Assembly (NCBI GenBank): GCA_050692985.1
Contig: JBOGVZ010000047.1
Coordinates: 76,533-140,532, forward strand
Direction: 5' to 3'
From: Actinomycetota bacterium
GTDB taxonomy: Bacteria; Actinomycetota; UBA4738; CALAEC01
Length of the DNA: 64,000 bases
Both the position numbers and the translations under genes were made by a program. The notes under the pieces are model-generated. The model saw only the letters and a program-made list of their open reading frames with translations, ran no database searches and had not been told where the DNA came from. This document shows positions 10,171 through 56,950 of this stretch, piece after piece (positions within the stretch are counted from its first letter, which is position 1; every line of letters starts with the position of its first letter).

Positions 10171-10244
10171 CACTGGGGGGTTCGCTCGCTGTTCACTCTG
10201 ACGCTTCCATCGCCCCCGGCGAGCTACACCCCCCGGACCCCCCC
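10171..10244 (+). repeat. Copy A of a ~73-nt GC-rich hairpin repeat (CACTGGGGGGTTCGCTCGC...GGCGAGCTACACCCCCCGGACCCCCCC)
   Basis: Shares its 5' 20 nt and 3' ~26 nt with the copies at 26232, 56804, 56878 and, inverted, 34454. The central ~27 nt are unique. Its 3' end supplies the last codons and the TAG stop of the P450 gene (...LRVRGGVRGV*). Confidence 0.8.
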
Positions 10245-11525
10245 GCGGACCCGGAGCTCCTTCAGGCCGCGGATGATGTAGTTGGGCTTCCACTCGGGCT
10301 CCTCCACCAGCTCCAGGCCCGGGAGGCGCCGCAGCAGCGTGCCGAACGAGGTCTCCAGCTCCACCCGGGCCAGCGGCGCCCCCAGGCAGAAGTGGATCCC
10401 GGCGCCGAACGACATGTGGGGGTTCTTCGGCCGGCCCACGTCGAGCTCGTCGGGACGCTCGAACACCTCGGGGTCGCGGTTGGCGCTGCCGAACAGCAGG
10501 GCCAGCTCCTGTCCCTTCGGGATCTCCACGCCGTGGACCTCCACGTCCTCCAGCACCCACCGCTCGAACATCTGGAGGGGGGTGTCGTAGCGCATCAGCT
10601 CCTCGATGGCCGTGCGCACCAGGGAGTGGTCGTCGTGGAGGCGTTGCAGCTCGCCCGGGTTGCGGAACAGCGACCACCACCCGTTGCCGGTGACGTTGAC
10701 CGTGGCCTCGTGGCCGGCGTTGAGCAGCAGGACGCAGGTGCCGATCAGCTCGTCCTTGGTGAGCCGGTGTCCCTCCTCCAGCACCTGGGTCAGGGCCGAG
10801 ATCAGGTCCTCCCGCGGGTCCCGGCGGCGCTCCCTCGATAGCCCGCGGAGGTAGGCGGAGAACTCCTCGCTGGCGGTGACCGCGGCCCGGGCGTCCTCGT
10901 CGGTGGGGTTGAGCTCGTACATCCGGCAGATCTCCGCCGACCACGGACGGAGGAGGTGGCGGTCGGACTCGGGCACGCCCAGCATCTCGGCGATCACCGC
11001 CACCGGCAGCGGCTCGGCCAGCTCCCTGATGAGGTCGAACTCGCCGGCGCCGGCCACCCCGTCTACCAGCTCCTCCATCAGGCCCTGGACGAACGGGCGC
11101 AGGCCCTCGACCATCCGCGGGGTGAACGCCTTCGACACCAGCTTCCTCACCCGGGAGTGGTCGGGAGGCTCCATGTCCAGGATCCCGGATCGGATCAGAT
11201 GCCAGAAGGGCGCGTGCCACTCGGGCTCCTCGGGCCGGCCCATCTCCGCGTGGGTGGCCATGTGGTGGTACGTCCGGCCGAACCGCCGGTCGCGGAGCAA
11301 GCCGTTCACGTCGTCGTGGCGGGGCACGATCCACTGGTTCGTGCCCTCGAAGTAGTGGATGGGCCCGGCCCGGCGCAGCGACGCGTAGACCGGATAGGGA
11401 TCGGCCACGAACTCCACTGCCCACGGGTCGAACCCCAGGGCCGCGGGATCGGCCATTCCGTGTGGCGCGGGGACCTGCGGCGCGTGCGCCATCAGCGGGA
11501 GTGTAGCGCGGGCGCTCGGCGTCAC
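10224..11525 (-). CDS. Cytochrome P450
   Basis: ...AGHEATVNVTGNGWW... EELMRYDTPLQ ... FGAGIHFCLGAPLARVE (heme-binding Cys loop) ... The start may be the internal Met (MADPAALGFDPW). Confidence 0.9.
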   Translation of the reverse strand: MTPSARATLPLMAHAPQVPAPHGMADPAALGFDPWAVEFVADPYPVYASLRRAGPIHYFEGTNQWIVPRHDDVNGLLRDRRFGRTYHHMATHAEMGRPEEPEWHAPFWHLIRSGILDMEPPDHSRVRKLVSKAFTPRMVEGLRPFVQGLMEELVDGVAGAGEFDLIRELAEPLPVAVIAEMLGVPESDRHLLRPWSAEICRMYELNPTDEDARAAVTASEEFSAYLRGLSRERRRDPREDLISALTQVLEEGHRLTKDELIGTCVLLLNAGHEATVNVTGNGWWSLFRNPGELQRLHDDHSLVRTAIEELMRYDTPLQMFERWVLEDVEVHGVEIPKGQELALLFGSANRDPEVFERPDELDVGRPKNPHMSFGAGIHFCLGAPLARVELETSFGTLLRRLPGLELVEEPEWKPNYIIRGLKELRVRGGVRGV

Positions 11526-11575
11526 CCACCGGTGCTAGGCTGCACGCATCCTCCCCCGGAGAGGAGCATCGGGGA

Positions 11576-11902
11576 GTGGACGTCCTGAACACGGCCATCA
11601 ACGCTGCGGTCATCGCTGCGGTGGGGATCCTGCTGGGGCGCTTCGTCAAGGGCAGGTTCGATGAGAACGACCGGCGGTGGGCGGAGAACGACCGGCGGTG
11701 GGCGGAGAACGACCGGCGCCTCGCGGCCATCGAGGCCAAGCTGGACGCCCACGACGCCCGGTTCGACGCCCTGGAGGCCAGGATGGCTTCCTTCGAAGCG
11801 CGGATGGATTCGTTCGAACGATCCCTGGACGGCATGCGCTCGGACCTGACCCGGGTGGCCCTGGCCGTGGGCGCGGGGCCGGCGGCCGGGACCGGAGGCT
11901 AG
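11576..11902 (+). CDS. Small N-terminally membrane-anchored coiled-coil protein with ENDRRWA heptapeptide tandem repeats
   Basis: GTG start 8-10 nt after GGAGAGGAG. MDVLNTAINAAVIAAVGILLGRF (TM), then ENDRRWAENDRRWAENDRRLAAIEAKLDAHDARFDALEARMASFEARMDSFERSLDGMRSDLTRV. Confidence 0.6.
   Translation: MDVLNTAINAAVIAAVGILLGRFVKGRFDENDRRWAENDRRWAENDRRLAAIEAKLDAHDARFDALEARMASFEARMDSFERSLDGMRSDLTRVALAVGAGPAAGTGG
11663..11725 (+). repeat. Perfect 21-bp direct repeat x2 plus a diverged third unit (GAGAACGACCGGCGGTGGGCG) inside the small coiled-coil gene
   Basis: Seen directly in the sequence at 11663-11704 (two identical units) plus a third unit with 3' divergence. It encodes the ENDRRWA repeats. Confidence 0.85.
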
Positions 11903-11990
11903 CGGGGGCACCGGCTCGCGCCGGCGCCGGGGCGGACACGCACGTCCGTCCCGGGCCGGCATCCCTCACCGGGCTAGGATTCGCCCTGAC

Positions 11991-14612: not shown

Positions 14613-14629
14613 GCAACCGGGCCGGCGCT

Positions 14630-16424: not shown

Positions 16425-16432
16425 GGCGGGGT

Positions 16433-17410
16433 TCAGGTACCCTTCGCCGGGGGGTGGGTGTCGCGGATCTTGAACAGCCGGACGCGGCCCACGCCCTTGA
16501 GGCTCCGGCTCCCGATCCGCCTCGCGTCCACCGCGTCGCGGCCGACCGCGTCGACGAATTCCTCGGAGGCCACCACGGAGCTGGGCCGGGCGAAGGCGGT
16601 GATCCTGGCGGCCACGTTGACGGGCCGCCCGAAGTAGTCGCCGCCCAGGGCCACCACCTCGCCGTAGTCGAGCCCGGCCCGGGCCGCAGGGAGGACCTCC
16701 GATCCCTCGGCCCGGCGGACCACGGTGGCGGCGGCCTCCAGGGCCCGAGGGGCCTCCGTGGAGACGAACATCACCGCGTCGCCGATCACCTTCACCAGGC
16801 GGGCTCCGGCCTCGGCGCAGGCCTCCACGGCCAGGTCCTCGAAGGCGTCGATCATCCCGCCCAGCTCCTCGCCGGGCAGGTCCTCGGAGATGCGGGAGAA
16901 GTCCACCAGGTCCACGAACCCGGTGGCCAGCGCGGAGCCCTCGCCGGTCCCGGCGGCCCGCAGCCCGTTCAGGGCCAGGAACAGGTGGCGGCGGTGGGCC
17001 TGGTCGAGGAGGTGGGCAGTGCTCTCCAGCAGCGAGTCCATCACGGGGCGGAGCCGCTCCTCCATCCCCTCACCGGGCTCGACGGCCATGGCCCCCAGGA
17101 TGCGGTCGCGGAACAACCTCGTCTCCGCGTCGGCGATCCGGGCCAGCGTGGTTCCGTACAGCCTGGTCACGGTGAGCATCTCGTCGGGCGGAACCCCGAG
17201 CTCCATGATGCCCCGGAGCAACGCCAGCGCCTCGACGTCACGGTCGTCGAACACGACCTCCCGGTCGTCCGGCTCGGGCATCCCCAGGGCCCGCCACACC
17301 CGCTTGGCCAGCGTCAGGTCGAGCCCGGCCTTGGCCGCGGCCTCCGGGGCGGTCAGGTGCGGCGGAGGGGCGAAGCTCTCCGCGGGGGGTGGCAGCGGTC
17401 GCTCGGACAG
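16433..17410 (-). CDS. Class III adenylate cyclase with N-terminal regulatory domain (Rv1264-like)
   Basis: C-terminal cyclase ATGFVDLVDFSRISEDL...KVIGDAVMFV...GEVVALGGDYFGRPVNVAARI. The N-terminal ...GLDLTLAKRVWRALGM resembles the Rv1264 regulatory domain. Conserved residues extend upstream of the first GTG (17299) to a TAG. The only plausible start is CTG at 17408-17410, 6 nt after AGGAGG. Confidence 0.8.
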   Translation of the reverse strand: MSERPLPPPAESFAPPPHLTAPEAAAKAGLDLTLAKRVWRALGMPEPDDREVVFDDRDVEALALLRGIMELGVPPDEMLTVTRLYGTTLARIADAETRLFRDRILGAMAVEPGEGMEERLRPVMDSLLESTAHLLDQAHRRHLFLALNGLRAAGTGEGSALATGFVDLVDFSRISEDLPGEELGGMIDAFEDLAVEACAEAGARLVKVIGDAVMFVSTEAPRALEAAATVVRRAEGSEVLPAARAGLDYGEVVALGGDYFGRPVNVAARITAFARPSSVVASEEFVDAVGRDAVDARRIGSRSLKGVGRVRLFKIRDTHPPAKGT

Positions 17411-23273: not shown

Positions 23274-24920
23274 CTACGGGCCGCCGGGTGCCCGGAGCTC
23301 TCGCTTCAGCACCTTGCCGGTCGAGGTGCGGGGCAGCTCGTCCACGATGTCGACGTGCCTGGGGACCTTGAACGAGGCCAGCTCGGCGCGGCAGGCCTTC
23401 AGGACGTCCTCCTCCGAGGCCGACCCCGCCACGAACGCCGCCAGCACCCGGCCGTACTCGGGGTCCGGCACGCCCACCACGGCGACCTCGTCCACGCCGG
23501 CCACGCGCTCGATGACCTGCTCGACCTCCACCGGGTACACGTTCTCGCCGCCGACCACCACCATGTCGTCGGCCCGGCCCTCCACGAACAGGTAGCCCCG
23601 TTCGTCCAGGTGGCCCAGGTCGCCGACGGCCAGGTAGCCCTGCCGGCCTTCCCGGCCTTCTCCCGAGGTGTAGCCCTCGAACGTGGCGTCGCTGCGGACG
23701 TGGATCTCCCCGGTCTCCCCGGCGCCGAGCGGCCGGCCCTCCGGCGAGAAGACGGCCACCTCCACGCCGGGGACGGGCCGGCCCACCGTGGCCGGGCGCC
23801 GGGCCATGTCCCGGGGCGTGGCCACCGTGACCCACCCCGCTTCCGTGGACCCGTACAGGTCGTGGAGGACGTCGCCCAGGACCTCCCGGGCCCTGGCCCG
23901 CAGCTCCTGGCCCAGCGATGCCCCGCTGGTGAACACGATCCGCAGGGACGAGAGATCGAAGCCGGATCGGGCCTCCTCGGGGAGGGACACGATCCGGCTG
24001 ATCATCACCGGGACCAGGGCCACGGCCGTGGCCCCGGTGTCCTCGACCATCCGGAGCGTCCCCCGGGCGTCGAAGCGCTCGGGCAGGACCATGGTGCACC
24101 CCAGCAGCATCGCCAGCGAGAACGTGAGCATGCCGAACGAGTGGAACATCGGCGCGGGGATGCACACCACGTCGTCGCGGCGCAGCGGCACCGCCGTGAG
24201 CAGGCCCAGGATCGAGGTGATCTCGCCGCCGCCGGTGCCCCTGGCCGCGCCCCTGGGCTTCCCCGTGGTGCCCGAGGTGTGGATCACGATGCGGTGCGAG
24301 CCGCGGTTCAGGGTCAGCGGGCCGGGTGGGGTGGGCGGATGCTCGGCCAGGAGGTCCTCGTAGGGACGGGAGCCCGGGACCGCGTTCTCCCCGTCGCCCG
24401 CGGCAACCAGGGCCATGCCGCCGGCGAGCTCGCCGACCCGGTCGGCGTGGAGCTCGTCGTACAGCAGGACCCTCGGCTCGGTCTGCTCGAGCGCCGGCCG
24501 CAGCTCCGACGGCCTGGCCCAGGTGTTCAGGGGGCAGGCCACCACACCCACCTTCTGTGCCGCCAGCACACCCTCCACCAGCTCCCGGCCGTTGCGCAGC
24601 AGCAGGGCCACCCGGTCCCCGGGCGACGCCCCCAGGGACGCCAGCGCTCCGGCAAGCCGGTTCACCCGCCCGTCGAGCTCGGACCAGGTCAGCGTCCCCC
24701 ACCGGTCGACCACCGCCTCCTTGTCCGGGAACGCCCGGGCGTTCAGGTGGCTGAGGATGCCCAGGGACGGGCCCCGCCCCGCCAGCCACGGGATCGACCG
24801 GAGCGCCGCCGCGGCCGCGGCCCGATCCACCAGCCGGGCGTCCCACAGCCGGGCCAGGGTCCTGGGCCCGGCCACAGCGGCGATCCGGCGCAGGCTCCGG
24901 CGCGCGCCCTCGAGCCTCAT
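23274..24920 (-). CDS. AMP-dependent synthetase/ligase (acyl-CoA synthetase family)
   Basis: IVIHTSGTTGKPRGA (AMP-binding box) ... LYGSTEAGWV ... GEIHVRSDATFEGY ... PRTSTGKVLKREL. The ATG at 24918-24920 overlaps the upstream hydrolase stop (ATGA). Confidence 0.9.
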   Translation of the reverse strand: MRLEGARRSLRRIAAVAGPRTLARLWDARLVDRAAAAAALRSIPWLAGRGPSLGILSHLNARAFPDKEAVVDRWGTLTWSELDGRVNRLAGALASLGASPGDRVALLLRNGRELVEGVLAAQKVGVVACPLNTWARPSELRPALEQTEPRVLLYDELHADRVGELAGGMALVAAGDGENAVPGSRPYEDLLAEHPPTPPGPLTLNRGSHRIVIHTSGTTGKPRGAARGTGGGEITSILGLLTAVPLRRDDVVCIPAPMFHSFGMLTFSLAMLLGCTMVLPERFDARGTLRMVEDTGATAVALVPVMISRIVSLPEEARSGFDLSSLRIVFTSGASLGQELRARAREVLGDVLHDLYGSTEAGWVTVATPRDMARRPATVGRPVPGVEVAVFSPEGRPLGAGETGEIHVRSDATFEGYTSGEGREGRQGYLAVGDLGHLDERGYLFVEGRADDMVVVGGENVYPVEVEQVIERVAGVDEVAVVGVPDPEYGRVLAAFVAGSASEEDVLKACRAELASFKVPRHVDIVDELPRTSTGKVLKRELRAPGGP

Positions 24921-26158
24921 CCCGCCTCCAGGAACCCCCGGACCAGCCGGTGCGTCTCTTCCGGCAGCTCGTACTGGGGCACGTGCCCGCAATCGCGCAG
25001 CACCACCGAGGCCGCCCCCGGGAGGGCCCGCTCCACGTGCCGGGCGAACGCCGCAGGGACCAGCCGGTCGTGCTGCCCCCACACGAACAGGGCCGGTCGC
25101 CGGAGCCCGGGCAGCCGGTCCCAGAACCCGCCGTCGCCGTAAGGCTCCTCCAGGTAGATCTGGCGAGCGGCCGAGAAGAACGCGATCCGGCCGCGGGGCG
25201 TCCCGAACACCCGCAGGAACTCGTCGGCGGCGGCCTCGTACCACGGGCCGGGCAGCCGGGCGGGGCGGGAGAACATCCGCTTGATCGACCACACCACCTG
25301 CCGGTGGGAGAGCGGGACCGGCAGGAGCGCCAGCTCCGGCCGCAGCACCCGCACCACCCGCACGAACTCTCGATGGCGGATGAACGCCGGCGAGGGCGTG
25401 AGCAGCACCATCCGGTCCACGCGCTCGGGAGCCCGCAGCCCCGTCTCGATGGCCACCCGGCCGCCCATCGAGTTGCCCACCAGGTGGGTCCGGTCGATCC
25501 CCACCACGTCCAGGAACCCCCGCAGCCACCGGGCGAAGAACGCGGCGTGGTAGCTCCGCAGCGGCTTGCCCGATTCCCCGAAGCCGGGCAGGTCGGGCGC
25601 CAGCACGCGGTGGTCCCGGGCCAGCTCCACCAGGATCGGAAGGACCGAGGCGTTCGTGGCCCCCAGGCCGTGGAGCAGCACCACGGGTGGCCCCCGGCCG
25701 GCCTCCAGGTAGAACGTGGGGACGCCCCACACCAGGGCGGAGCCGGCCCGGGGGAAGTGGTCGGGGCGGCGGCGGCCGTCGAACAGGCTGTCGAGCCGGA
25801 GCGACAGGGCCAGGTTCCCCCGGACCCGCAGACGGCCCCCCAGGAACGCGTCCACCCCCGAGCGGGTCCCCTCCATCACCTCGGTGATCGTGGCCACGTC
25901 CGTGTCGATCGTGGTGTCCGGGGCCTCGGCCAGCTCGGTGGCCAGGCTCACCGTTCCCCGGTCGAATCGCAGCGACAGCCCCCCGTGATCGCCGAGGTTC
26001 AGCGCCACCGTGGCTCGCAGGCTCCGGACGCCGCCGGTGGGGTGCCGCACCCGCTCGCGGACCAACCGCTCCAGCGCCCGAAGCTCGGTGGAGGCCGGGG
26101 GTGGGGCCGAAGGGAGCGATGGTCGGCCTGCCGTCACCTGCGATCCTGGCCGGGCCAT
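24917..26158 (-). CDS. SCP2-domain / alpha-beta hydrolase fusion protein
   Basis: N-terminal SCP2-like ...ATVALNLGDHGGLSLRFDRGTVSL...DAFLGGRLRVRGNLALSLRL, then VVLLHGLGATNASV...LVGNSMGGRVA (GxSxG)...CGHVPQYE. Confidence 0.8.
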   Translation of the reverse strand: MARPGSQVTAGRPSLPSAPPPASTELRALERLVRERVRHPTGGVRSLRATVALNLGDHGGLSLRFDRGTVSLATELAEAPDTTIDTDVATITEVMEGTRSGVDAFLGGRLRVRGNLALSLRLDSLFDGRRRPDHFPRAGSALVWGVPTFYLEAGRGPPVVLLHGLGATNASVLPILVELARDHRVLAPDLPGFGESGKPLRSYHAAFFARWLRGFLDVVGIDRTHLVGNSMGGRVAIETGLRAPERVDRMVLLTPSPAFIRHREFVRVVRVLRPELALLPVPLSHRQVVWSIKRMFSRPARLPGPWYEAAADEFLRVFGTPRGRIAFFSAARQIYLEEPYGDGGFWDRLPGLRRPALFVWGQHDRLVPAAFARHVERALPGAASVVLRDCGHVPQYELPEETHRLVRGFLEAG

Positions 26159-26231
26159 ATGGGACCATTGTTACCCACGCCCGGGCCCCAGGAACGGAAC
26201 CGGTGCCCCCCCCGGACCCCGGGGCCCCCCT

Positions 26232-26305
26232 CACTGGGGGGTCCGCTCGCCTTCCGAGTCCTCGGCCCGGCGGTGGTCGGGGCGAGCTACCCCCCCGGGC
26301 CCCCC
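26232..26305 (+). repeat. Copy B of the ~73-nt hairpin repeat (CACTGGGGGGTCCGCTCGCC...GGGGCGAGCTACCCCCCCGGGCCCCCCGG), preceded by a partial 3'-arm remnant (26203-26227)
   Basis: Sits in the divergent intergenic region between the SCP2-hydrolase start (26158, minus) and the nitroreductase start (26324, plus). Confidence 0.8.
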
Positions 26306-32586: not shown

Positions 32587-33246
32587 ATGCGACTCCCCTC
32601 CCGCCTGGGCGTGTACGTGGTGACCTCCGCGGACCTGGTGCCCGGCCGCGGTCACCTCGAGGTGGCCCGGGCGGCCCTCCGGGGCGGGGCCGGGGCGATC
32701 CAGCTGCGGGCCCCCGAGCTGGCCGACGGCGACCTCCTTCCGCTGGCCCGGGAGCTGGCCGCGACCTGTGGGAACGCCGGGGCCCTGTTCGTGGTGAACG
32801 ACCGGGTGGACGTGGCGTTGGCGGCCGGCGCCGACGGCGCCCACCTGGGCCAGGGCGACGAGCTCGAGCGGGCCCGCGACCGGCTGGGGCCGGAGCGAGT
32901 GCTGGGGGTCAGCGTGGCCGACCCCGCCCAGGCGGCGGCCGCCCAGGCCGCCGGGGCCGACTACCTGGGGGTCACGGTGTGGCCCACCGGAACCAAGCCG
33001 GAGGCGATCCCGGTGGGGCTGGACGGGCTCCGGGCTGTCGTGGCGGCGGCCGGCGTCCCGGTGGTGGCCATCGGTGGGATCGACGAGCGCACCGCCCCCC
33101 CGGCCCTGGCCGCCGGGGCGTCGGGCGTAGCGGTGGTCTCGGCCGTGGGTGCCGCCCCCGACCCGGAGGCCGCCACCCGTAGGCTGGTCGACGTGGTGAA
33201 GAGGACCCGGACCGAGGCGGCCGCCTCGGAGGAGGACGTGGGATGA
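32587..33246 (+). CDS. thiE: Thiamine-phosphate synthase
   Basis: ...GAIQLRAPELADGDLLPLARELAATCGNAGALFVVNDRVDVALAAGADGAHLGQ...ADYLGVTVWPTGTKPEAIPVGLDGL...VVAIGGI. Confidence 0.85.
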   Translation: MRLPSRLGVYVVTSADLVPGRGHLEVARAALRGGAGAIQLRAPELADGDLLPLARELAATCGNAGALFVVNDRVDVALAAGADGAHLGQGDELERARDRLGPERVLGVSVADPAQAAAAQAAGADYLGVTVWPTGTKPEAIPVGLDGLRAVVAAAGVPVVAIGGIDERTAPPALAAGASGVAVVSAVGAAPDPEAATRRLVDVVKRTRTEAAASEEDVG

Positions 33247-34304
33247 GCGAAGAGCAGCGCCCCGGAAAGGTCACCCCCGAGCTGTTCGAGCGATACATCT
33301 TCCGGTACCTCGGTGCCCCGGACCCCGAGGTGCTCCAGGGCCCCCGCCACGGCGTGGACGTGGGCGTGGTCCGGGTGGCTCCGGGGGTGGCCATGGCCCT
33401 GACCGCCGACCCGGTGTTCATCGTGCCAGCGTACGGGTGGGACCGGGCGGCGTGGTTCGCGGTGCACATCCTGGCTTCCGACGCCGCCGTCAGCGGGCTG
33501 CCGCTGCGGTGGATGGCCGTGGACCTCAACCTGCCGGTGGCCACCACCGACGACGACCTGGCCGCGATCTGGACGGCGTTCTCCGGGACGTGCCGCGATC
33601 TCGGGATCGCCGTGGTCACCGGCCACACCGCCCGATACGACGGCTGTGACTGGCCGATGGTGGGCGGCGCGGTGTGCGCGGCCCTGGGGCCCGAGGATGC
33701 CTACGTGACCCCGGCGATGGCCCGGCCGGGCGACGCCGTGGTGGTCACCAAGGGCCCGGCCATCGAGGCCACCGCGCTGTTCGCCGCCACGTTCCCCGAC
33801 CGGCTGGCCGCGGGCGTCGGGGCCGACGTGGCCAAGGCCGCCGACGCGCTGTTCGAGCAGATGACCGTGGTCCCCGAGGCCGCGGTGGCCGCGGCGTACG
33901 GACTGCGAGACGCTGGCGTCACGGCCATGCACGATGCCACCGAAGGGGGTCTGGTAGGCGGGCTGGCGGAGGTGGCCACCGCGTCCGAGGTGGGCCTGCG
34001 GATCGACCTGGCCGCGGTTCCCGTTCCCCCCGAGGTCCGGGCGGTGTGCGACCACGTGGGCATCGACCCGTTCACCTCGATCTCCGAGGGCACGCTGATC
34101 GCCACCGTACGGCCCGGCCACGCCGACGGCTACGTTGGGGCGTTGGGAGAGGCGGGGATCGAGGGGGCCGTGATCGGCGAGGTCACCGAGCCGCAGGCGG
34201 GCACGGTCCTGGTCGACGGCGGCGCCAAGCGGCCGCTGGAGCACCCGGGCCTGGACCCGTTCTGGGATGCGTTCGGCCGGTGGGCCAGGGAGGCGGCCGG
34301 CTGA
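33243..34304 (+). CDS. AIR-synthase-related (PurM-superfamily) protein, ThiL/HypE-like
   Basis: Overlaps the thiE stop (ATGA). PurM N- and C-domain motifs (..HGVDVGVV.., ..AMHDATEGGLVGGLAEVA..). Confidence 0.65.
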   Translation: MSEEQRPGKVTPELFERYIFRYLGAPDPEVLQGPRHGVDVGVVRVAPGVAMALTADPVFIVPAYGWDRAAWFAVHILASDAAVSGLPLRWMAVDLNLPVATTDDDLAAIWTAFSGTCRDLGIAVVTGHTARYDGCDWPMVGGAVCAALGPEDAYVTPAMARPGDAVVVTKGPAIEATALFAATFPDRLAAGVGADVAKAADALFEQMTVVPEAAVAAAYGLRDAGVTAMHDATEGGLVGGLAEVATASEVGLRIDLAAVPVPPEVRAVCDHVGIDPFTSISEGTLIATVRPGHADGYVGALGEAGIEGAVIGEVTEPQAGTVLVDGGAKRPLEHPGLDPFWDAFGRWAREAAG

Positions 34305-34453: not shown

Positions 34454-34526
34454 GGGGGGTCCGGGGGGGTAGCTCGCCCGGGGGCGGGATGGCGGCGATC
34501 CGGACGGCGAGCGAACCCCCCAGCGA
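34454..34526 (-). repeat. Copy E of the ~73-nt hairpin repeat, inverted orientation (GGGGGGTCCGGGGGGGTAGCTCGCC...GGCGAGCGAACCCCCCAGCG)
   Basis: Lies immediately upstream of the cupredoxin start. The 5'-terminal CACTG is changed to CGCTG. Confidence 0.75.
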
Positions 34527-34550
34527 GAGGGGGGTCCGGGAAGGTAGCGG

Positions 34551-38642: not shown

Positions 38643-39557
38643 TCACTGGGGGGTTCGGACGGCGAAGGCCAGGGGCCGCCCCGGCTCCCGCGACTTGCAG
38701 GTGAGGATGCGGGGGTCGCGCCGTCCGACGGCGACCTCCACCCGGTGGCGGGGACCGTCCACCTGGTCGAACTCGACGACGTGGCGGCCCCGAGCCAGCC
38801 GCCGGACCGCCCGGAACGCCAGGTCCTCGACCCCGACGATCCCGTGCCGCTCCCGGACGAAGTGCTCGGCGGCCTGGACGGCCGGCGGATAGGCCGAGCG
38901 CCCCCTGTAGAACGGCAGGGCGATCCGTCCCCGGGCGTAGGCCTCGGCCACCCCTACCGCATCGCCCGGTCCCACCCGTCCGAAGTACAGCCCGTGGGGG
39001 AAGCACACCACGTTGCCGGCGAAGCGGTCGCCGCCCACGTGGGTGGCCTCCCACACCGCTCCGTCCCCGAACCCGGCCAGGGCCCGGTACAGGGGCCCGC
39101 CCAGGCGGGCGCAGCAGGGGTCGTGCTTGCCATGGGTGCACACCAGGTAGAGCGGCCCGGGCACGGGCTCACCGAACCCCTCGAACCGCCGCCCCACCAG
39201 GGCGTCGAGGTCCAGCTCCATCAGCCAGGCCGGGTCGTCGACCTCGAAGCTGGCCACCCGGTGACGGTCCCGCCCGGTGTGCGCCACGAAGCACCTCCGT
39301 GGCACCGCCACCGGCCGCTGCCGCTGCTTGACGAGCAGCACGCGCATGCCCAGCCGCGTTCCGGCCTCGGCCAGCCTGGCCCCGACGTCGGGAGGGAACG
39401 CGCTGTCGACCAGGGCGTCGTGCCCCCACCGGCCGGGCTGCTCGATCAGCAGCCAGGAGCGGAACCGCGACGCCGTGCCGGCCAGGGGCTCGTCGGCCGC
39501 CAGGGAGACCGCGGAGCACACCGCCCCCTCAGCGGCCACCTGTGACCTCGAGGGCAC
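38643..39557 (-). CDS. Sucrase/ferredoxin-like (thioredoxin-like [2Fe-2S]) family protein
   Basis: ...LYLVCTHGKHDPCCARLGGPLY..., the characteristic Cys cluster. Its last codons and TGA stop (CCC CAG TGA) are formed by the 5' terminus of repeat fragment C. Confidence 0.65.
   Translation of the reverse strand: MPSRSQVAAEGAVCSAVSLAADEPLAGTASRFRSWLLIEQPGRWGHDALVDSAFPPDVGARLAEAGTRLGMRVLLVKQRQRPVAVPRRCFVAHTGRDRHRVASFEVDDPAWLMELDLDALVGRRFEGFGEPVPGPLYLVCTHGKHDPCCARLGGPLYRALAGFGDGAVWEATHVGGDRFAGNVVCFPHGLYFGRVGPGDAVGVAEAYARGRIALPFYRGRSAYPPAVQAAEHFVRERHGIVGVEDLAFRAVRRLARGRHVVEFDQVDGPRHRVEVAVGRRDPRILTCKSREPGRPLAFAVRTPQ
38644..38658 (+). repeat. Fragment C: only the 15-nt 5' terminus (CACTGGGGGGTTCGG) of the hairpin repeat
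   Basis: Identical to the first 14-15 nt of copies A and D. The rest of the element is absent. Confidence 0.5.
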
Positions 39558-51021: not shown

Positions 51022-51112
51022 GCCCGGCCGCCGATCTCCCGGGGAGACCGGAGCGGGGTCATACGCTCCAGCAGCGGTGTGCGCCGGCGCCGGGATGCGT
51101 TTCCGCAGGTCG

Positions 51113-51187
51113 TGCGCCCGGAGGGACTCGAACCCCCAACCTCCTGATCCGTAGTCAGACGCTCTGTCCAAATTGAGCTACGGGCGC
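51113..51187 (-). tRNA. tRNA-Arg (anticodon ACG)
   Basis: Reverse complement GCGCCCGTAGCTCAATTTGGACAGAGCGTCTGACTACGGATCAGGAGGTTGGGGGTTCGAGTCCCTCCGGGCGCA folds as a cloverleaf with 7-bp acceptor stem, anticodon loop CTACGGA and a GTTCGAGTC T-loop. CCA is not encoded. Confidence 0.85.
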
Positions 51188-51191
51188 TGCG

Positions 51192-51280
51192 CGGAGGCGG
51201 TGCGATTTGAACGCACGAGGGGCTTGCACCCCAACGGGATTAGCAATCCCGCGCCATAGACCAGACTAGGCGACGCCTCC
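51192..51280 (-). tRNA. tRNA-Ser (anticodon GCT), class II with long variable arm
   Basis: Reverse complement GGAGGCGTCGCCTAGTCTGGTCTATGGCGCGGGATTGCTAATCCCGTTGGGGTGCAAGCCCCTCGTGCGTTCAAATCGCACCGCCTCCG, with anticodon stem CGGGA/TCCCG and loop TTGCTAA. Confidence 0.85.
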
Positions 51281-51365
51281 TCCTCCGACCAAAGTGTACC
51301 GGACCGTGGCCGGCGGGGAACCGCCCGGAGGGAGGACGCTGGGGCGGCACGGCTACAATGGCCGC

Positions 51366-52229
51366 ATGGCCCAGGGCACCAGCGGCACCCCCTCACCCGT
51401 CCTGGGGATCGCGGGTCCCGTCATCCTCATCGGTGGCGCCGAGGACAAGCGGCGCGACAAGGTCATCCTGAGCCGGTTCGTGGAGCTTGCCGGAGGCCCG
51501 AACGCCAACATCGTGGTCATCAGCACCGCCTCGACGTTCGCGGAGCTGGCGGCGGAACGGTACGTCGAGCTGTTCTCCGAGCTGGGAGCCGGAGTCGTCA
51601 CCGGCGTCCGCCCCCTGTCACGTGAGGAGGCCAACGACCCCGCCACGGTCGCCCCCCTGGCCACGGCCACGGGGGCGTTCCTCACCGGCGGCAACCAGGT
51701 CCGGCTGATCTCCACGGTCGGGGGGACCCGGCTCGAGGACGCCCTGGCCTCGGCCCGTGACCGCGGGGCGGCCATCGCGGGGACCTCGGCCGGGGCGAGC
51801 GCCGCGGCCACCCACATGGTGGCCTTCGGCCGGTCGGGGGCCAGCCCCAAGCACCGCATGATCCACATCTCGGCCGGACTGGGCCTGGTGGACGGGATCA
51901 TCGTGGACCAGCACTTCGAGCAGCGCGGACGCATGGGCCGGCTCCTGGCCGCGGTGGCCCTGTCCCCCCGCTTGATCGGCATCGGGCTCGACGAGGACAC
52001 GGCCGCCATCATCTGGCCGGACCGCACGCTGGAGGTGATCGGGAAGGGGTCGGTGACGATCGTGGACGGCTCCCAGATCGCCACGGACTCGTTCCAGATG
52101 AAGGGCCACCGCCCCATGATGGTCTCCGGGGCCATCGTCCATGCCCTCCCCACGGGGTTCCGGTTCGACCTGCGGGGGCGGCGGCTGATCGAGGTGAGCG
52201 AGCCCGAGGTCCGGGAGGCCTCCGAGTGA
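51366..52229 (+). CDS. cphB: Cyanophycinase (S51 peptidase)
   Basis: ...PVILIGGAEDKRRDKVILSRFVELAGG...AIAGTSAGASAAATHM (Ser nucleophile)...GLGLVDGIIVDQHFEQRGR. An alternative upstream GTG start exists at 51294. Confidence 0.85.
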   Translation: MAQGTSGTPSPVLGIAGPVILIGGAEDKRRDKVILSRFVELAGGPNANIVVISTASTFAELAAERYVELFSELGAGVVTGVRPLSREEANDPATVAPLATATGAFLTGGNQVRLISTVGGTRLEDALASARDRGAAIAGTSAGASAAATHMVAFGRSGASPKHRMIHISAGLGLVDGIIVDQHFEQRGRMGRLLAAVALSPRLIGIGLDEDTAAIIWPDRTLEVIGKGSVTIVDGSQIATDSFQMKGHRPMMVSGAIVHALPTGFRFDLRGRRLIEVSEPEVREASE

Positions 52230-55081
52230 GCCGGCCCGCCCGATCCTCCCCGAAGGGGTCCCGCACGGCGTCCAGGGATGCCCGGGCCAGGGCCAAGCGC
52301 GAGCCGGCCTCCAAGAAGCCGCCGGCCCGGCCCGACCTGAAGATCCTCAAGACCCAGGTGTTCCGGGGACCAAACTACTACTCGTACGACCCCACCATCC
52401 GCCTGCTGGTCGACCTGGGCTCGCTGGAGCACTGGCCGTCGAACACGATCAAGGGCTTCAACACGGCGCTGCGGGAGCTGCTCCCGGGTATGGCGGACCA
52501 CTCCTGCTCGCTGGGACGGCAGGGCGGCTTCCTGGAGCGGCTCGACGACGGCACCTGGCTGGGCCACGTGGCCGAGCACGTGGCCCTGGAGCTCCAGCGC
52601 GAGGCGGGGACGCACATCTACCGGGGCAAGACCCGCAGCGCCGGAGCCCCCGGCCGCTACAACGTGATCTACGGGTACAGCGAGGAGCGGGTGGGGCTGG
52701 CCGCCGGCACCCTGGCCGTGCGGCTGGTCAACCACCTGGTCGAGGCCGAGGAGGCATTCGACTTCCTGGCCGAGCTGGAGAGGCTCATCCTCCTGGCGGA
52801 GCGGCGGGCCTTCGGCCCATCCACCCAGGCGCTCATCGACGAGGCCGCCAGCCGCGACATCCCCTACATCCGGCTCAACGAGGCGTCCCTGGTCCAGCTC
52901 GGTCAGGGCACCTACCAGCGGCGGATCCGGGCCACGATGACCTCGCTCACCCCGGCCCTGGCCGTGGACATAGCCGGAGACAAGAACCTCACGAACCGGT
53001 TGCTGGGTGCCGCCGGGTTGCCGGTCCCCCGCTCGGAGACCGTGCGCACCGAGGACGACGCGGTGGCCGCGGCCAAGCGGATCGGGTTCCCCGTGGTGAC
53101 CAAGCCCCTGGACGGGAACCACGGCCGCGGGGTGAGCCTGGAGCTCGCCACCGAGCGGGACGTGCGCCGGGGGTGCAGGCGGGCCCGGGACGAGTCCCGC
53201 CGGGGGGTCGTGGTCGTGGAGAGCTACGTGACCGGCAACGACTACCGGGTGCTGGTCATCGGTGGCCACATGGTGGCGGTGGCCCAGCGGGTCCCTGCCC
53301 ACGTGATCGGCGACGGCACCCACACGGTCCGCGAGCTGGCCGACATCGCCAACGAGGACCCCCGTCGGGGCATCGGGCACGAGAAGGTGCTCACCAGGAT
53401 CAAGGTGGACGAGGCCGCCGAGGCCCTGGTCAGGAAGCAGGGCTACGCGCTCGATGACGTCCTCCCCGAAGGCGAGATGGCCCTGCTGGTGGCCACCGGC
53501 AACATGTCCACCGGGGGCAGCTCGATCGACCGCACCTGGGAGGCCCACGAGGAGAACGTGGAGATCGCCGAGGAGGCCGCCCGGGTGGTCGGCCTGGACG
53601 TGGCCGGCATCGACTTCCTGACGCCCGACATCTCCCAGCCCGTCCGGGAGACCGGCGGAGCCATCGTGGAGGTCAACGCGGCCCCCGGCTTCCGGATGCA
53701 CACCCATCCCACCGAGGGCGAGCCGCAGTACGTGGCCAAGCCGGTGGTGGACCTGTTGTTCCCCCCCGGGTCACCGTCCCGGATCCCGATCGTGGCCGTC
53801 ACCGGCTCGAACGGGAAGACCACCACCGTTCGGATGATCGCCCACATCTTCGAGCGCATGGGGCGGAAGGTGGGCGTCACCACCACCGACGGCATCTACG
53901 TCGACGGCCGCCTGGTGCGGAAGGTAGACGCCAGCGGCCCCAAGTCGGCGCTGATGGTCCTCCAGAACCCCCGCGTGGACTTCGCCGTGTTCGAGGTGGC
54001 CCGGGGCGGGATCCTCCGTGAGGGTCTGGGCTACGGGCGAAACGACGTGGCCGTGGTGCTCAACGTCACCGGAGACCACCTGGGGCTGAAGGACGTCGAC
54101 TCCCTGGAGGACCTGGCCGAGGTCAAGCGGGTCGTCGTGGAGGCCGTCCCCCGGACCGGCATGGCCGTGCTCAACGCCGACGACCCCCTGGTGGCCGACA
54201 TGCGCAAGCACACCCGCGGCTCCGTGGTGCTGTTCTCGATGGAGGACCGCAGCGAGCTCGTTGAGCGGTGGGTCCGGCGGGGGAACAAGGCCGTCACGCT
54301 CGAGCGCGACGACCGGGGAGAGCGCATGGTGATCCGCGAGGGTCGCCGGTCGATGCCGATCGCCTACACCCACAACCTGCCGGCCACGTTCAACGGCCGG
54401 GCCCGGATGATGGTCCAGAACGCCCTGGCCGCCGCGGCGGCCGCCCATGCCGCCGGCGCCCACCTCCACGACATCCGCCAGGGGCTGCGGACGTTCACGA
54501 CCTCGATCTTCCAGGCACCGGGACGCCTGAACCTGGTCGACCTGGCCGGGATCAAGGTGCTGATCGATTACGCCCACAACCCCCACGGACTGGAGATGGT
54601 GGGCGACTTCGTGGAGCGCATCACCGCCGAGGCACCCGGTGGCGCCCCGCCCGGTGCGCCGTCGTGGTCGGCCAACCTGCGGGTTGCGGTGGTGGCCACC
54701 CCCGGCGACCGCCGCGAGGACGACATGCGGGAGCTGGGCCGGGTGGCCGCCCGATACTTCGACGACGTCATCATCCGGGAGGACGAGCATCCCCGCGGCC
54801 GCAAGCGCGGTGAGACCGCGGCGTTCATCCTGGAGGGCGTGCAGGAGGCCATGCGGGCCGGTGCCCGGGCGGGCAGCGTGGAGATCGTGCTCGAGGAGGA
54901 CGAGGCCGCCCGGCGGGCCCTGGACCGCAGCCGGCCGGGCGACCTGGTGGTGGTGTGCGTGGACCACGCCGACCGGGTGTGGCGAGAGCTCGAGACCCGC
55001 CGCAAGGCCGCCCTGGGCCTGCCGCCAACGGCCGGCGATGGCCAGGGCGCCGAGATCCCGGAGCTGGCCCCGGAGCTCTGA
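52226..55081 (+). CDS. cphA: Cyanophycin synthetase (N domain + ATP-grasp G domain + Mur-ligase M domain)
   Basis: GTG overlapping the cphB stop. ...VVTKPLDGNHGRGVSLEL (ATP-grasp) ... IVAVTGSNGKTTTVRM (Mur-ligase P-loop) ... IDYAHNPHG. Confidence 0.9.
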   Translation: MSRPARSSPKGSRTASRDARARAKREPASKKPPARPDLKILKTQVFRGPNYYSYDPTIRLLVDLGSLEHWPSNTIKGFNTALRELLPGMADHSCSLGRQGGFLERLDDGTWLGHVAEHVALELQREAGTHIYRGKTRSAGAPGRYNVIYGYSEERVGLAAGTLAVRLVNHLVEAEEAFDFLAELERLILLAERRAFGPSTQALIDEAASRDIPYIRLNEASLVQLGQGTYQRRIRATMTSLTPALAVDIAGDKNLTNRLLGAAGLPVPRSETVRTEDDAVAAAKRIGFPVVTKPLDGNHGRGVSLELATERDVRRGCRRARDESRRGVVVVESYVTGNDYRVLVIGGHMVAVAQRVPAHVIGDGTHTVRELADIANEDPRRGIGHEKVLTRIKVDEAAEALVRKQGYALDDVLPEGEMALLVATGNMSTGGSSIDRTWEAHEENVEIAEEAARVVGLDVAGIDFLTPDISQPVRETGGAIVEVNAAPGFRMHTHPTEGEPQYVAKPVVDLLFPPGSPSRIPIVAVTGSNGKTTTVRMIAHIFERMGRKVGVTTTDGIYVDGRLVRKVDASGPKSALMVLQNPRVDFAVFEVARGGILREGLGYGRNDVAVVLNVTGDHLGLKDVDSLEDLAEVKRVVVEAVPRTGMAVLNADDPLVADMRKHTRGSVVLFSMEDRSELVERWVRRGNKAVTLERDDRGERMVIREGRRSMPIAYTHNLPATFNGRARMMVQNALAAAAAAHAAGAHLHDIRQGLRTFTTSIFQAPGRLNLVDLAGIKVLIDYAHNPHGLEMVGDFVERITAEAPGGAPPGAPSWSANLRVAVVATPGDRREDDMRELGRVAARYFDDVIIREDEHPRGRKRGETAAFILEGVQEAMRAGARAGSVEIVLEEDEAARRALDRSRPGDLVVVCVDHADRVWRELETRRKAALGLPPTAGDGQGAEIPELAPEL

Positions 55082-55083
55082 GC

Positions 55084-56397: not shown

Positions 56398-56793
56398 CTA
56401 CGCGGGGTCGAGGTCCAGGGCGACGGAGTTGATGCAGTACCGCTGGCCCGTGGGGGCGGGGCCGTCGTCGAAGACGTGGCCCAGGTGGGAGCCGCACCTC
56501 CGGCACAGGACCTCGGTGCGGGTCATGCCGTGGCTGTCGTCGGGGCGCAGCTCCACCGCCTGGGCCACGGCCGGCTCGGTGAAGCTGGGCCATCCGGTCC
56601 CCGAGTCGAACTTGGCATCGGAGCGGAACAGCTCCGCGCGGCAGGCCGCGCACCGGTACACCCCCTCGTCCTTGCTGTAGACGTACTGGCCGGTGAACGG
56701 CGGCTCGGTTCCCGCCTTCCGCAGGATCTCGTACTGGGCCGGGGTCAGCCGGGCCTTCCATTCCTCGTCGGTGAGGTTCCGTTCCGTGTCCAT
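56398..56793 (-). CDS. msrB: Peptide-methionine (R)-S-oxide reductase
   Basis: ...[26 protein letters not shown]...[21 protein letters not shown] (CxxC x2 zinc site and the catalytic Cys region). Confidence 0.9.
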
Positions 56794-56803
56794 GGCTCCT
56801 CTC

Positions 56804-56876
56804 CACTGGGGGGTTCGCTCGCCATCCGATCCCGACGCCGACCCACCCGGGGCGAGCTACCCCCCCGGACCCCCCT
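56804..56876 (+). repeat. Copy D1 of the ~73-nt hairpin repeat (CACTGGGGGGTTCGCTCGCC-ATCCGATCCCGACGCCGACCCACCCGG-GGCGAGCTACCCCCCCGGACCCCCC)
   Basis: First unit of a tandem pair between the hydrolase stop (56992) and the msrB start (56793), both on the minus strand. Confidence 0.85.
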
Positions 56877-56877
56877 C

Positions 56878-56950
56878 CACTGGGGGTTCGCTCGCCATCC
56901 GATCCCGACGCCGACCCACCCGGGGCGAGCTATCCCCCCCGGACCCCCCA
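56878..56950 (+). repeat. Copy D2, near-identical tandem duplicate of D1 (including the loop sequence)
   Basis: Differs from D1 by one G fewer in the 5' run and an extra T in the 3' arm. The repeat period is 74 nt. Confidence 0.85.

What the first reader, a model, noticed from the sequence alone, without database searches (positions are those of the whole stretch)
10171..56950. Family of ~73-nt GC-rich hairpin repeats with conserved arms and hypervariable loops at gene boundaries
The same element occurs at 10171-10244 (A), 26232-26305 (B), 56804-56876 and 56878-56950 (D1, D2, tandem), and inverted at 34454-34526 (E). A 15-nt fragment lies at 38644-38658 (C). The conserved parts are 5'-CACTGGGGGG-TTC-GCTCGCC, then a ~27-nt loop, then GGCGAGC-TA-CCCCCCC-GGACCCCCC-3'. 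GCTCGCC/GGCGAGC and G6/C6-7 can pair into a ~13-bp stem interrupted by one asymmetric bulge. The stems are nearly identical between copies; the loops are unrelated (A, B, E), or identical only within the tandem pair. This pattern (conserved self-complementary arms, free loop, intergenic or gene-end placement, occasional tandem duplication, terminal fragments) fits a REP/BIME- or MITE-like mobile or recombinogenic element, or a family of structured RNA modules. It does not match any riboswitch or sRNA that I recognise.
Basis: seen in the sequence. Interest (0 to 1): 0.8.

Follow-up and report, generated by a model that had tools for sequence, protein, structure and literature searches.

The report
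Dispersed GC-rich hairpin repeat family
The window holds five copies of a roughly 75-85-nt GC-rich hairpin repeat from an undescribed, apparently mobile family scattered between (occasionally inside) genes of uncultured soil Actinomycetota; it behaves like the REP and MIRU repeats of other bacteria, not like a gene-specific regulator.

Summary
Five full copies and one or more remnants lie at the stated coordinates, far above chance, and a covariance model finds no others in the window.

The family has at least 82 copies in 11 Actinomycetota MAG species. Sister families with different but complementary stems occur in 78 soil-metagenome contigs. None was found in viral contigs, plasmids, Rfam or the literature.

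Read on the strand of the flanking genes, the unit is G5-6-TYC-G6-7-(A)GTAGC, a 6-7-bp stem, a 24-30-nt loop, then GC-GRW-C5-6 and a short tail. The stem covaries strongly.

- **Orientation:** copies are co-oriented with transcription (43 against 8).
- **Position:** they sit tightly between a stop codon and the next start.
- **Overlap with genes:** some supply the stop codon, some are read through into a TGA that overlaps the next ATG, and one sits in frame inside a gene.
- **Arrays:** tandem arrays of 2-3 units differ in copy number between near-identical contigs.
- **Turnover:** orthologous sites are filled in one species and empty in relatives.

Best reading: a non-autonomous mobile palindromic repeat with REP-like anatomy and MIRU-like behaviour. 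The mobilising enzyme is unknown; no Y1 transposase was found in about 1 Mb. This is a new variant of a known kind, of moderate interest.

The parts
10171..10244 (-). Copy A. On the minus (sense) strand it reads G7-TCC-G6-TGTAG-CTCGCC, loop, AGCGAGC-GAA-C6-AGTG. It lies between a P450 gene and an adenylate-cyclase/AAA/TPR gene, both on the minus strand.
   Evidence: (63.7 bits)
10224..10226 (-). The TAG inside copy A serves as the stop codon of the P450 gene 10224..11525(-).
   Evidence: (upstream ORF of 436 codons stops at offset 0)
26232..26305 (-). Copy B, about 77 nt upstream of the start of the alpha/beta-hydrolase-SCP2 gene 24917..26158(-), in a divergent intergenic region.
   Evidence: (53.7 bits)
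26206..26230 (-). Remnant of the 5' G-run module (sense strand GGGGGGCCCCGGGGTCCGGGGGGGG), directly 3' of copy B, with no hairpin.
34454..34526 (+). Copy E, sense on the plus strand, between the AIR-synthase-related gene (33243..34304 +) and a cupredoxin gene.
   Evidence: (68.8 bits)
34529..34549 (+). Truncated second unit (GGGGGGTCCGGGAAGGTAGCG). Its decayed G-run (GGGAAGG) lies where a ribosome-binding site is expected, and its TAG lies 3 nt before the GTG at 34550 of the cupredoxin ORF.
   Evidence: start +28; Copper-bind domain
38643..38663 (-). Fragment C, a 3'-terminal remnant (GCCGTCCGAACCCCCCAGTGA). It forms the last seven codons and the TGA stop of the sucrase/ferredoxin-like gene 38643..39557(-).
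56804..56876 (-). Copy D1, proximal to msrB. Its tail AGTGGA is followed at once by GAGGAGCC-ATG, the ribosome-binding site and start of msrB (56398..56793 -).
   Evidence: (74.8 bits)
56878..56950 (-). Copy D2, in direct tandem with D1. It begins 41 nt after the stop (56992) of the alpha/beta-hydrolase gene. A 99.9%-identical assembly carries only one unit here.
   Evidence: (49.8 bits)

Best explanation
The repeat is a lineage-specific, non-autonomous mobile palindromic element of uncultured soil Actinomycetota. Its anatomy is REP-like and its genomic behaviour is MIRU-like. The unit, read on the gene strand, is G5-6-TYC-G6-7-(A)GTAGC, stem, 24-30-nt loop, stem, GC-GRW-C5-6 and a tail. It folds into a two-step GC hairpin whose conserved foot is the likely recognition site of a trans-acting enzyme that has not been identified. 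That foot consists of the G-run, GTAGC, GCGRW and the C-run. Inferred steps follow. New copies land in the short spacer between a stop codon and the next ribosome-binding site, or in the last codons of a gene. They also land next to existing copies, which gives direct tandem arrays that then gain or lose units by slippage or recombination. Selection keeps mainly insertions whose G-rich strand is the mRNA strand and that leave the neighbouring genes translatable. Resident copies are co-transcribed, so they probably act incidentally like REP or SMAG hairpins on mRNA stability and intercistronic translation. Copies decay by internal deletion of the hairpin, leaving solo G-run or C-run remnants.
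For: **Shown: family size and spread.** There are 82 exact-pattern copies in 11 Actinomycetota MAG species plus 5 in the window. A further 13 divergent copies were found by covariance model. Sister families occur in 78 soil-metagenome contigs, and one such host is also Actinomycetota by transketolase identity. None occurs in viral contigs or plasmids.

**Shown: covariation.**
- Stem positions 3-5 switch between T-A/A-T, C-G/G-C and G-C/C-G, with 96-99% Watson-Crick pairing over 141 distinct cores.
- The covariation score is 0.218 against 0.059±0.007 in shuffles (0/500 as high), and at most 0.039 with slid partners.
- An inserted A always accompanies a T next to the C-run.

**Shown: turnover.**
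- L042 is filled and L056 empty, differing by exactly 75 nt in frame.
- The pntAA-pntAB junction is filled in L081/L078 and empty in three relatives whose neighbouring protein is 87-90% identical.
- About 10 unbiased cross-species comparisons are all empty at the orthologous site.

**Shown: intragenic copy.** L055 has an in-frame insertion of about 26 residues just N-terminal of a VWA domain, absent from the L035 orthologue.

**Shown: arrays.** There are 20 arrays with periods of 74-80 nt. Copy number differs between contigs at least 98% identical: window 2 against L074 1, L080 3 against three contigs with 2, and L144 2 against L077 1.

**Shown: context.**
- Orientation follows the genes, 43 against 8, p = 7e-7.
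- In 11-12 copies the upstream ORF stops at the element's TAG.
- In 7 copies the ORF reads through to a TGA 9-27 nt beyond the C-run, mostly overlapping the next start (ATGA or TGATG), for example lutA-lutB-lutC in L069.
- The flanking genes are unrelated housekeeping genes.

**From the literature.** The same traits are described for REP/SMAG (GTAG plus palindrome, effects on transcript stability), for MIRU (intercistronic, co-oriented, coupled ORFs) and for repeats fused in frame to genes (PMC3184786, PMC12548453).
Against: No transposase or other mobilising gene was found. phmmer with IS608 TnpA, E. coli TnpA-REP and a Sulfolobus TnpA gave nothing at E<=10 in 998 kb of loci plus the window. 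None of the 40 window proteins has a transposase or recombinase domain. No target-site duplication or exact insertion boundary could be defined, because the filled and empty pairs are too diverged. The copy-number differences could be short-read assembly collapse; one Logan contig breaks inside the repeat. Some copies persist at orthologous sites in 2-3 species with intact arms and diverged loops. One orthologous pair shows a compensatory C-G to T-A change. That hints at selection on resident copies rather than pure selfish turnover. Single-sequence folding energies are not unusual for the base composition (z from -2.5 to +0.6).
Confidence: 0.65

Rival explanations
1. The repeat is a host-maintained structural module of polycistronic mRNAs. 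It may be an old domesticated repeat. Under this reading the G-rich sense-strand hairpin is kept because it stabilises the upstream message, marks a processing site, or holds ribosomes between cistrons. The G-runs and the loop GGAG would then act as Shine-Dalgarno-like standby sites. Mobility would be secondary or extinct.
For: Copies are strongly co-oriented with transcription, 43 against 8. That exceeds what replication-strand targeting plus actinobacterial gene-strand bias would give (inference). In the window, copy E is inverted exactly where the genes are inverted. Arms, G/C runs and loop length stay conserved while loop sequence drifts at orthologous copies in 2-3 species, and one orthologous pair shows a compensatory change. 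Non-stem motifs are conserved across families with different stems. The truncated unit at 34529-34549 sits where the ribosome-binding site of the next gene is expected.
Against: Orthologous sites are usually empty in related species. Distance to the next start varies from 3 to about 120 nt. Eight copies lie antisense to both neighbours. One copy sits inside a coding region. There is no link to any gene function. The wobble evidence for which strand folds is contradictory. No expression data are available.
Confidence: 0.22
2. The copies are intrinsic (factor-independent) transcription terminators or attenuators that happen to share sequence.
For: They are GC-rich hairpins placed just after stop codons. 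It is general knowledge, not tested here, that actinobacterial terminators can lack a clear U-tract.
Against: No T-run follows any copy. The tails are AGTGGAG, AGTGAAAC, CGATCAAAC or YGAAGA, and the terminator scan finds none. Most copies lie inside operons a few nucleotides before the next ribosome-binding site, for example lutABC and pntAA-pntAB, where termination would be harmful. Some are translated through. Termination does not explain the loop of 24-30 nt or the second G-run.
Confidence: 0.06
3. The copies are integron attC-like recombination sites that mark gene cassettes.
For: They are imperfect palindromes with conserved arms, a variable centre and an internal asymmetric loop, placed at gene 3' ends and co-oriented with the genes.
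Against: Copies lie 8-22 kb apart among housekeeping genes and inside conserved operons. No integrase or other recombinase is present in the window. The GTTRRRY/RYYYAAC core sites are absent. Direct tandem arrays occur with no ORF between units.
Confidence: 0.01
4. The similarity is chance or low-complexity resemblance of G/C runs, or an assembly artefact.
For: The genome is 73% G+C. The short G/C-run motif alone is not enriched: 10 hits against 8.1 expected.
Against: The full arms are far above chance. The same unit recurs in independent assemblies from many studies. The stem covaries.
Confidence: 0.01

Closest known systems
REP / SMAG elements and REPIN-RAYT systems (Enterobacteria, Pseudomonas, Stenotrophomonas)
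   Same: Both are short GC-rich imperfect palindromes, dispersed in tens to hundreds of copies and mostly extragenic and close to gene 3' ends. A conserved GTAG lies immediately 5' of the stem. Palindromes are family-specific while the foot is conserved. Copies persist vertically in a lineage. REP and SMAG are reported to affect the stability of upstream transcripts (PMC3184786; PMC3116915 and PMC3337134 abstracts).
   Different: The unit here is larger. It has two helices, a long loop of 24-30 nt and an extra G6-TYC module. Units form direct tandem arrays rather than inverted doublets (REPINs or BIMEs). Copies show a strong sense-strand bias. No RAYT was found in about 1 Mb. The three REPIN/RAYT papers ranked highest contain no occurrence of the word 'Actinobacteria'.
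MIRU (mycobacterial interspersed repetitive units)
   Same: The host phylum is the same. Units of 40-100 bp lie in intercistronic spacers of operons, are transcribed with the operon and are oriented with the genes. They form direct tandem arrays with variable copy number. ORFs run through the unit and overlap the neighbouring genes' stop and start codons. Filled and empty sites are seen between species (PMC3184786, PMC12548453). Here the matching results are.
   Different: This family is defined by a covarying GTAG-footed hairpin and G/C-run clamps. Only 7 of 87 copies show the read-through arrangement overlapping the next start. No tetranucleotide direct repeats were seen. Sequence relatedness to MIRU was not tested.
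RPE (Rickettsia palindromic elements) and other repeats fused in frame to genes
   Same: A palindromic repeat is tolerated inside coding sequence in frame, or extends protein C-termini (PMC3184786). Here the examples are the L055 VWA protein and the lutA, lutB and pntAA tails.
   Different: Most copies here are intergenic. The sequence, size and host are unrelated.
MITEs with terminal inverted repeats (e.g. Correia/NEMIS, ERIC, RUP)
   Same: Both are small non-autonomous repeats. The ends form a 10-nt imperfect inverted repeat (GGGGGGTYCG ... CGRACCCCCC). Copies insert near genes and are co-transcribed.
   Different: No target-site duplication was found, and no parent insertion sequence with the same ends was found in the loci. 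The orientation bias and direct arrays are not typical of cut-and-paste MITEs.

Membership tests
REP / REPIN-RAYT | Short GC-rich imperfect palindrome, many dispersed copies, predominantly extragenic | tested here: met
   87 copies in 11 MAG species plus the window, and 89 copies in metagenome contigs. Most are intergenic. The stem covaries.
REP / REPIN-RAYT | Conserved GTAG tetranucleotide at the 5' foot of the hairpin | tested here: met
   GTAGC precedes the stem in all families. The G before TAG was not required by the first search pattern, yet it is at least 90% conserved. Rare variants are ATAG, CTAG and TTAG.
REP / REPIN-RAYT | Cognate RAYT (Y1/HUH tyrosine transposase) gene in the genome, typically flanked by inverted REPs | tested here: inconclusive
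   No Y1 transposase homologue was found at E<=10 in 998 kb around the copies. The genes between inverted pairs are a PAP2-like phosphatase (judged from sequence motifs only, no Pfam scan) and lutA. Whole genomes could not be scanned.
REP / REPIN-RAYT | REPs organised as inverted doublets (REPIN/BIME) | tested here: not met
   All 20 clusters are direct head-to-tail arrays with periods of 74-80 nt.
MIRU | 40-100-bp unit in intercistronic regions of actinobacterial operons, oriented like the flanking genes | tested here: met
   Co-directional neighbours count 43 sense against 8 antisense. Examples are the lutABC and pntAA-pntAB junctions.
MIRU | Direct tandem arrays with variable unit number between strains | tested here: inconclusive
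   Counts of 2 against 1, 3 against 2 and 2 against 1 units were seen between contigs at least 98% identical. Assembly collapse cannot be excluded.
MIRU | ORF through the unit that overlaps the stop of the upstream gene and the start of the downstream gene (translational coupling) | tested here: inconclusive
   Seven copies are read through to a TGA, mostly overlapping ATG or GTG. In 11-12 copies the ORF ends at the internal TAG. The remaining copies lie after the stop codon.
MIRU | Sequence similarity to the mycobacterial MIRU consensus | not tested
RPE-type in-frame palindromic insertions | Repeat inserted in frame within ORFs | tested here: met
   In L055 the insertion adds about 26 residues before the VWA domain relative to L035. 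L042 has an in-frame insertion of 75 nt relative to L056.
MITE | Terminal inverted repeats plus target-site duplication, with a related autonomous insertion sequence | tested here: inconclusive
   A 10-nt imperfect inverted repeat is present at the ends. No target-site duplication is visible at the filled/empty pairs. No longer element carries the same ends.
Integron attC | Array of cassettes next to intI, with R''/L''-L'/R' boxes and a GTTRRRY core | tested here: not met
   No integrase is present and the genes are housekeeping operons. The core motif is absent from the consensus.
Intrinsic terminator | GC hairpin followed by a U-tract | tested here: not met
   No T-run follows any copy, and the scan finds 0 sites.
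Any Rfam family (riboswitch, sRNA, tRNA-like) | Match to a curated covariance model | tested here: not met
   At the gathering threshold only two tRNAs match in the window. In E-value mode on three copy-rich loci nothing matches at the copies. ARAGORN does not call the copies.

The most novel reading that the evidence does not exclude
The family may be the visible half of a vertically inherited repeat-plus-enzyme partnership, analogous to REPIN-RAYT but using a different, still unrecognised enzyme. The conserved foot (G6-TYC-G7-GTAGC ... GCGRW-C6) would be the recognition site and the stem would be free to covary. Alternatively, resident copies may have been taken over by the host as intercistronic modules whose G-rich sense strand tunes translation or mRNA survival in operons of a deep, uncultured actinobacterial lineage.
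Probability: 0.15. Interest if true: 0.7.

Novelty: new variant of a known kind. Interest (0 to 1): 0.4.

Why it matters
**Practical consequences**
- The repeat breaks or collapses short-read assemblies of these MAGs.
- It creates spurious or real C-terminal extensions and altered stop codons in gene calls.
- It offers VNTR-like markers for strain tracking in soil Actinomycetota.

**Biological consequences**
- It extends REP/MIRU-type repeats to a deep uncultured actinobacterial lineage.
- Its architecture is clean: a conserved foot and a covarying stem.
- Its turnover is clear and it shows a strong transcription-linked orientation bias.
- This makes it a tractable case for two questions: how such repeats are mobilised where no RAYT is evident, and whether hosts exploit them in operon expression.

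Tried and rejected
- **Known RNA family:** Rfam at gathering and permissive thresholds, and ARAGORN, give no match at the copies.
- **Literature:** a full-text search for the arm sequences returned 71 papers; the 15 listed are on unrelated subjects.
- **tRNA-like reading:** G7-UA-GCUC resembles an acceptor stem plus D stem, but this has no support.
- **Promoter or terminator:** none was found.
- **Single-sequence folding:** z-scores are unremarkable on both strands, so energy alone says nothing in 73% GC.
- **RNAalifold on exact-pattern copies:** uninformative because the search pattern fixed the arms. This was solved with divergent covariance-model hits and a free-stem metagenome pattern.
- **Which strand folds:** C×A pairs at inner stem positions 6 and 7 would be T·G on the C-rich strand. 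C-to-T changes at the outer end would be G·U on the G-rich strand. The two are contradictory and probably reflect transition bias.
- **Alternative helix between the extra G6-TYC-G and CGRA-C6:** the mismatching TCC+GAA combination is not depleted, 7 seen against 6.3 expected.
- **Autonomous parent element or solo ends at kilobase distance:** none was found.
- **Y1 transposases:** none was found.
- **Viral contigs and plasmids:** no copies.
- **Replication-strand explanation of the orientation:** GC skew in the window only tracks local gene direction.
- **Close relatives of the window organism for site comparison:** the best non-identical homologue of the flanking hydrolase is only 65% identical, and its locus was not retrievable or not syntenic.
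Full report
**Observation**

The 20-nt left arm, allowing up to 3 mismatches, occurs 5 times against 0.04 expected. The 25-nt right arm occurs 3 times against 0.00 expected. TRF reports D1/D2 as two 73-nt units with 97% matches.

I built a covariance model (R1) from 86 family members and ran it over the window with filters off. It scores the five copies at 50-75 bits and nothing else above 17 bits. The window therefore holds exactly five full copies. It also holds remnants at 38643-38663, 26206-26230 and 34529-34549. The window is 73% G+C.

**Anatomy**

Copy B lies between divergent genes and is co-directional only with the gene downstream of it. I therefore describe the unit on that sense strand:

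- G5-6, TYC, G6-7, an optional A, then GTA.
- A 6-7-bp stem, GCTCGCC paired with GGCGAGC in the window's family.
- A loop of 24-30 nt, median 27.
- GRW, C5-6, and a tail of about 6-9 nt that differs between genomes (AGTGGA, CGATCAAAC, GGCACCGGA, YGAAGA).

The second G-run pairs with the C-run, and GCTCGCC pairs with GGCGAGC. A small internal loop (GUA opposite GRA) lies between the two helices. Arrays have periods of 74-80 nt, so the outer G-run and the tail belong to the repeated unit.

**Spread**

One exact-pattern scan of GTDB species genomes returned 73 loci. Seventy of them, with 82 copies, come from 11 uncultured Actinomycetota MAGs. Three hits, in a Gammaproteobacteria MAG and a Thermoanaerobaculia MAG, lack the G/C-run modules and are off-target.

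R1 found 13 more divergent copies in the same loci. A second pattern fixed only the non-stem motifs. It returned 78 soil-metagenome contigs with 89 copies. Most of these belong to sister families with other stems:

- GCAGCC/GGCTGC
- GCCGCC/GGCGGC
- GCTGGCC/GGCCAGC
- GCTCGTC/GACGAGC
- a 10-bp stem TCCCGCGGCC/GGCCGCGGGA

A transketolase next to one GCAGCC-type copy is 76-91% identical to proteins of Actinomycetota MAGs, so that host is in the same phylum. No copy was found in IMG/VR viral contigs or PLSDB plasmids. Rfam gives no match at gathering or permissive thresholds. The papers returned by a full-text search for the arm sequences were on unrelated subjects, judging from the 15 of 71 listed.

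**Structure is under constraint**

I anchored on the conserved flanks, so no structure-guided alignment was involved. Across 141 distinct cores:

- Stem positions 1-5 are 96-99% Watson-Crick.
- Position 3 is T-A in 96 cores and A-T in 42.
- Position 4 is C-G in 90 and G-C in 47.
- Position 5 is G-C in 94 and C-G in 42.

On 98 distinct loop-less constructs the covariation score is 0.218, against 0.059±0.007 in 500 shuffles (none as high). With the 3' partners slid by 1-3 columns it is at most 0.039. An inserted A after the G-run always goes with a T before the C-run, which extends the outer helix.

These switches reflect a limited number of family-level events. Smaller independent ones also exist, including a C-G to T-A change between orthologous copies L061 and L147. 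Single-sequence folding energies are not exceptional for the composition. Evidence on which strand folds is contradictory.

**Genomic behaviour**

- **Orientation.** Among sites with confidently called co-directional neighbours, 43 have the G-rich strand as the sense strand and 8 the opposite (p = 7e-7). The bias holds separately in the genome set (25 against 4) and the metagenome set (18 against 4). In the window, copy E is inverted exactly where the genes are inverted.
- **Position.** Of 31 copies with an identifiable upstream stop, 12 use the element's own TAG. Eight more have the stop within 14 nt of the first G-run. The next start codon is typically 6-60 nt beyond the C-run, often right after a Shine-Dalgarno-like stretch.
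- **Read-through.** In seven copies the upstream ORF passes through the whole element and stops at a TGA 9-27 nt later. That TGA mostly overlaps the next start (ATGA, TGATG), for example at lutA-lutB and lutB-lutC in L069.
- **Neighbours.** They are functionally unrelated: P450, cyclase-AAA-TPR, hydrolases, MsrB, a ThiL-like protein, cupredoxin, LutABC, PntA/B and a VWA protein. None of the 40 window proteins scanned has a transposase or recombinase domain.

**Turnover**

- **L042 against L056.** L042 carries a copy where L056 has none. The difference is exactly 75 nt in frame, and the empty site retains a G6-CTCC-G7 stretch as coding sequence.
- **L055 against L035.** L055 carries a copy inside a gene. 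It adds about 26 Gly/Ser/Pro-rich residues just N-terminal of a VWA domain, compared with the uninterrupted L035 orthologue.
- **The pntAA-pntAB junction.** It is filled in L081/L078 and empty in three relatives whose neighbouring transketolase is 87-90% identical.
- **Unbiased comparisons.** In about ten cross-species comparisons the second locus had been fetched for a different copy. The orthologous site was always empty.
- **Shared sites.** Four sites are shared by two or three species. Their arms are intact and their loops diverged. In one array the units have non-homologous loops in the two species, which suggests re-insertion next to an existing copy.
- **Copy number.** Near-identical contigs differ in unit number: window 2 against L074 1 at 99.9% identity, L080 3 against three contigs with 2, and L144 2 against L077 1. 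This could be real VNTR behaviour or assembly collapse. One Logan contig ends inside the repeat.
- **Remnants.** Solo remnants of the 5' or 3' module exist.

**Interpretation**

Several features fit a non-autonomous mobile palindromic repeat:

- dispersed copies with a conserved, sequence-specific hairpin foot and a freely covarying stem
- family-specific variants in related hosts
- filled and empty sites
- direct arrays
- in-frame intragenic copies
- decay to fragments
- no link to gene function

The GTAG-footed GC palindrome is the hallmark of REP/SMAG elements. The intercistronic, co-oriented, tandem and partly translated arrangement in an actinobacterium is what is described for MIRUs. In-frame fusion to genes is known for RPE and other repeats (PMC3184786, PMC12548453).

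It is not a REPIN, because the units are direct rather than inverted doublets. No RAYT or IS200/IS605-type transposase was found in 998 kb around the copies, and whole genomes could not be searched. The mechanism of spread is therefore inferred, not shown.

The orientation bias is best explained by selection on the transcript. One possibility is that the C-rich antisense version is harmful within operons. Another is that the G-rich version is useful. The data do not separate the two. The host-function rival keeps about 0.2 probability and is not exclusive of mobility.

**Unexplained**

- the role of the extra G6-TYC module
- the fixed loop length
- the identity of the mobilising activity
- which strand, as DNA or as RNA, is the one recognised

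**Verdict**

The finding is real and correctly interpreted in outline. It is a previously undescribed family, in fact a small superfamily, of REP/MIRU-like repeats. I rate it a new variant of a known kind, of moderate interest.

Noticed in passing
window 51294-55081 (+) and 59191-60924 (-): An S51 peptidase (the Pfam family that includes cyanophycinase) and a cyanophycin synthetase are followed, 4 kb away on the other strand, by a second Mur-ligase-domain protein. The paralogous Mur-ligase parts account for the longest inverted similarities in the window (53783-54127 against 60091-60435, 76-79% complementary).
   Followed up: partly
window 17229-17318 (-) and 39154-39234 (-): ARAGORN calls a tRNA-Pro and a tRNA-Thr here. 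The Rfam tRNA model does not report them at gathering, and they lie within GC3-supported ORFs, so they are probably false positives. The tRNA-Arg and tRNA-Ser at 51112-51280 (-) are supported by both tools.
   Followed up: partly
window 56804-56950 against L074 2274-2363 (GCA_975305695.1, CDIABC010000002.1) and L075: A 99.9%-identical assembly of the same population carries one unit where the window has two. A Logan contig of the same region ends inside the repeat. This is either VNTR-like variation or short-read collapse.
   Followed up: partly
window 34529-34552 (+): A truncated unit seems to have been recycled. Its decayed G-run (GGGAAGG) lies where the ribosome-binding site is expected, and its TAG lies 3 nt before the GTG start of a cupredoxin gene.
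   Followed up: partly
window 40759-40881: A GTC/GGT-rich imperfect 48-nt direct repeat (3 local copies). It lies just beyond the called start (40737) of the JmjC-domain ORF on the minus strand; whether it is coding was not checked.
   Followed up: no
L134 12661-12754 and L135 53-146: A variant of the repeat with CATAG in place of GTAG and a 10-bp stem TCCCGCGGCC/GGCCGCGGGA. It shows how far the stem can change while the G/C-run clamps stay.
   Followed up: no
L118, L129, L154 (sample Ga0183260): GCAGCC-type copies sit in contigs whose genes have GC3 of only about 0.65-0.7. There the repeat is a local GC island, and my GC3-based gene calls are unreliable.
   Followed up: no
L010 4413-4467 and L019 5264-5318 (JBOIDF010000012.1, Gammaproteobacteria MAG); L041 3299-3352: These are off-target matches of the first search pattern. 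They share GCTCGCC...GGCGAGCTA but lack the G/C-run modules. The two Gammaproteobacteria hits have identical flanks and may be one site seen in two overlapping loci.
   Followed up: no
L155-L157 (loci around transketolase homologues): The GCAGCC-type host carries a Calvin-cycle gene cluster upstream of pntAA/AB/B. It comprises RuBisCO large subunit, a LysR regulator, phosphoribulokinase, transaldolase, ribulose-phosphate epimerase and transketolase. This suggests an autotrophic soil actinobacterium.
   Followed up: no
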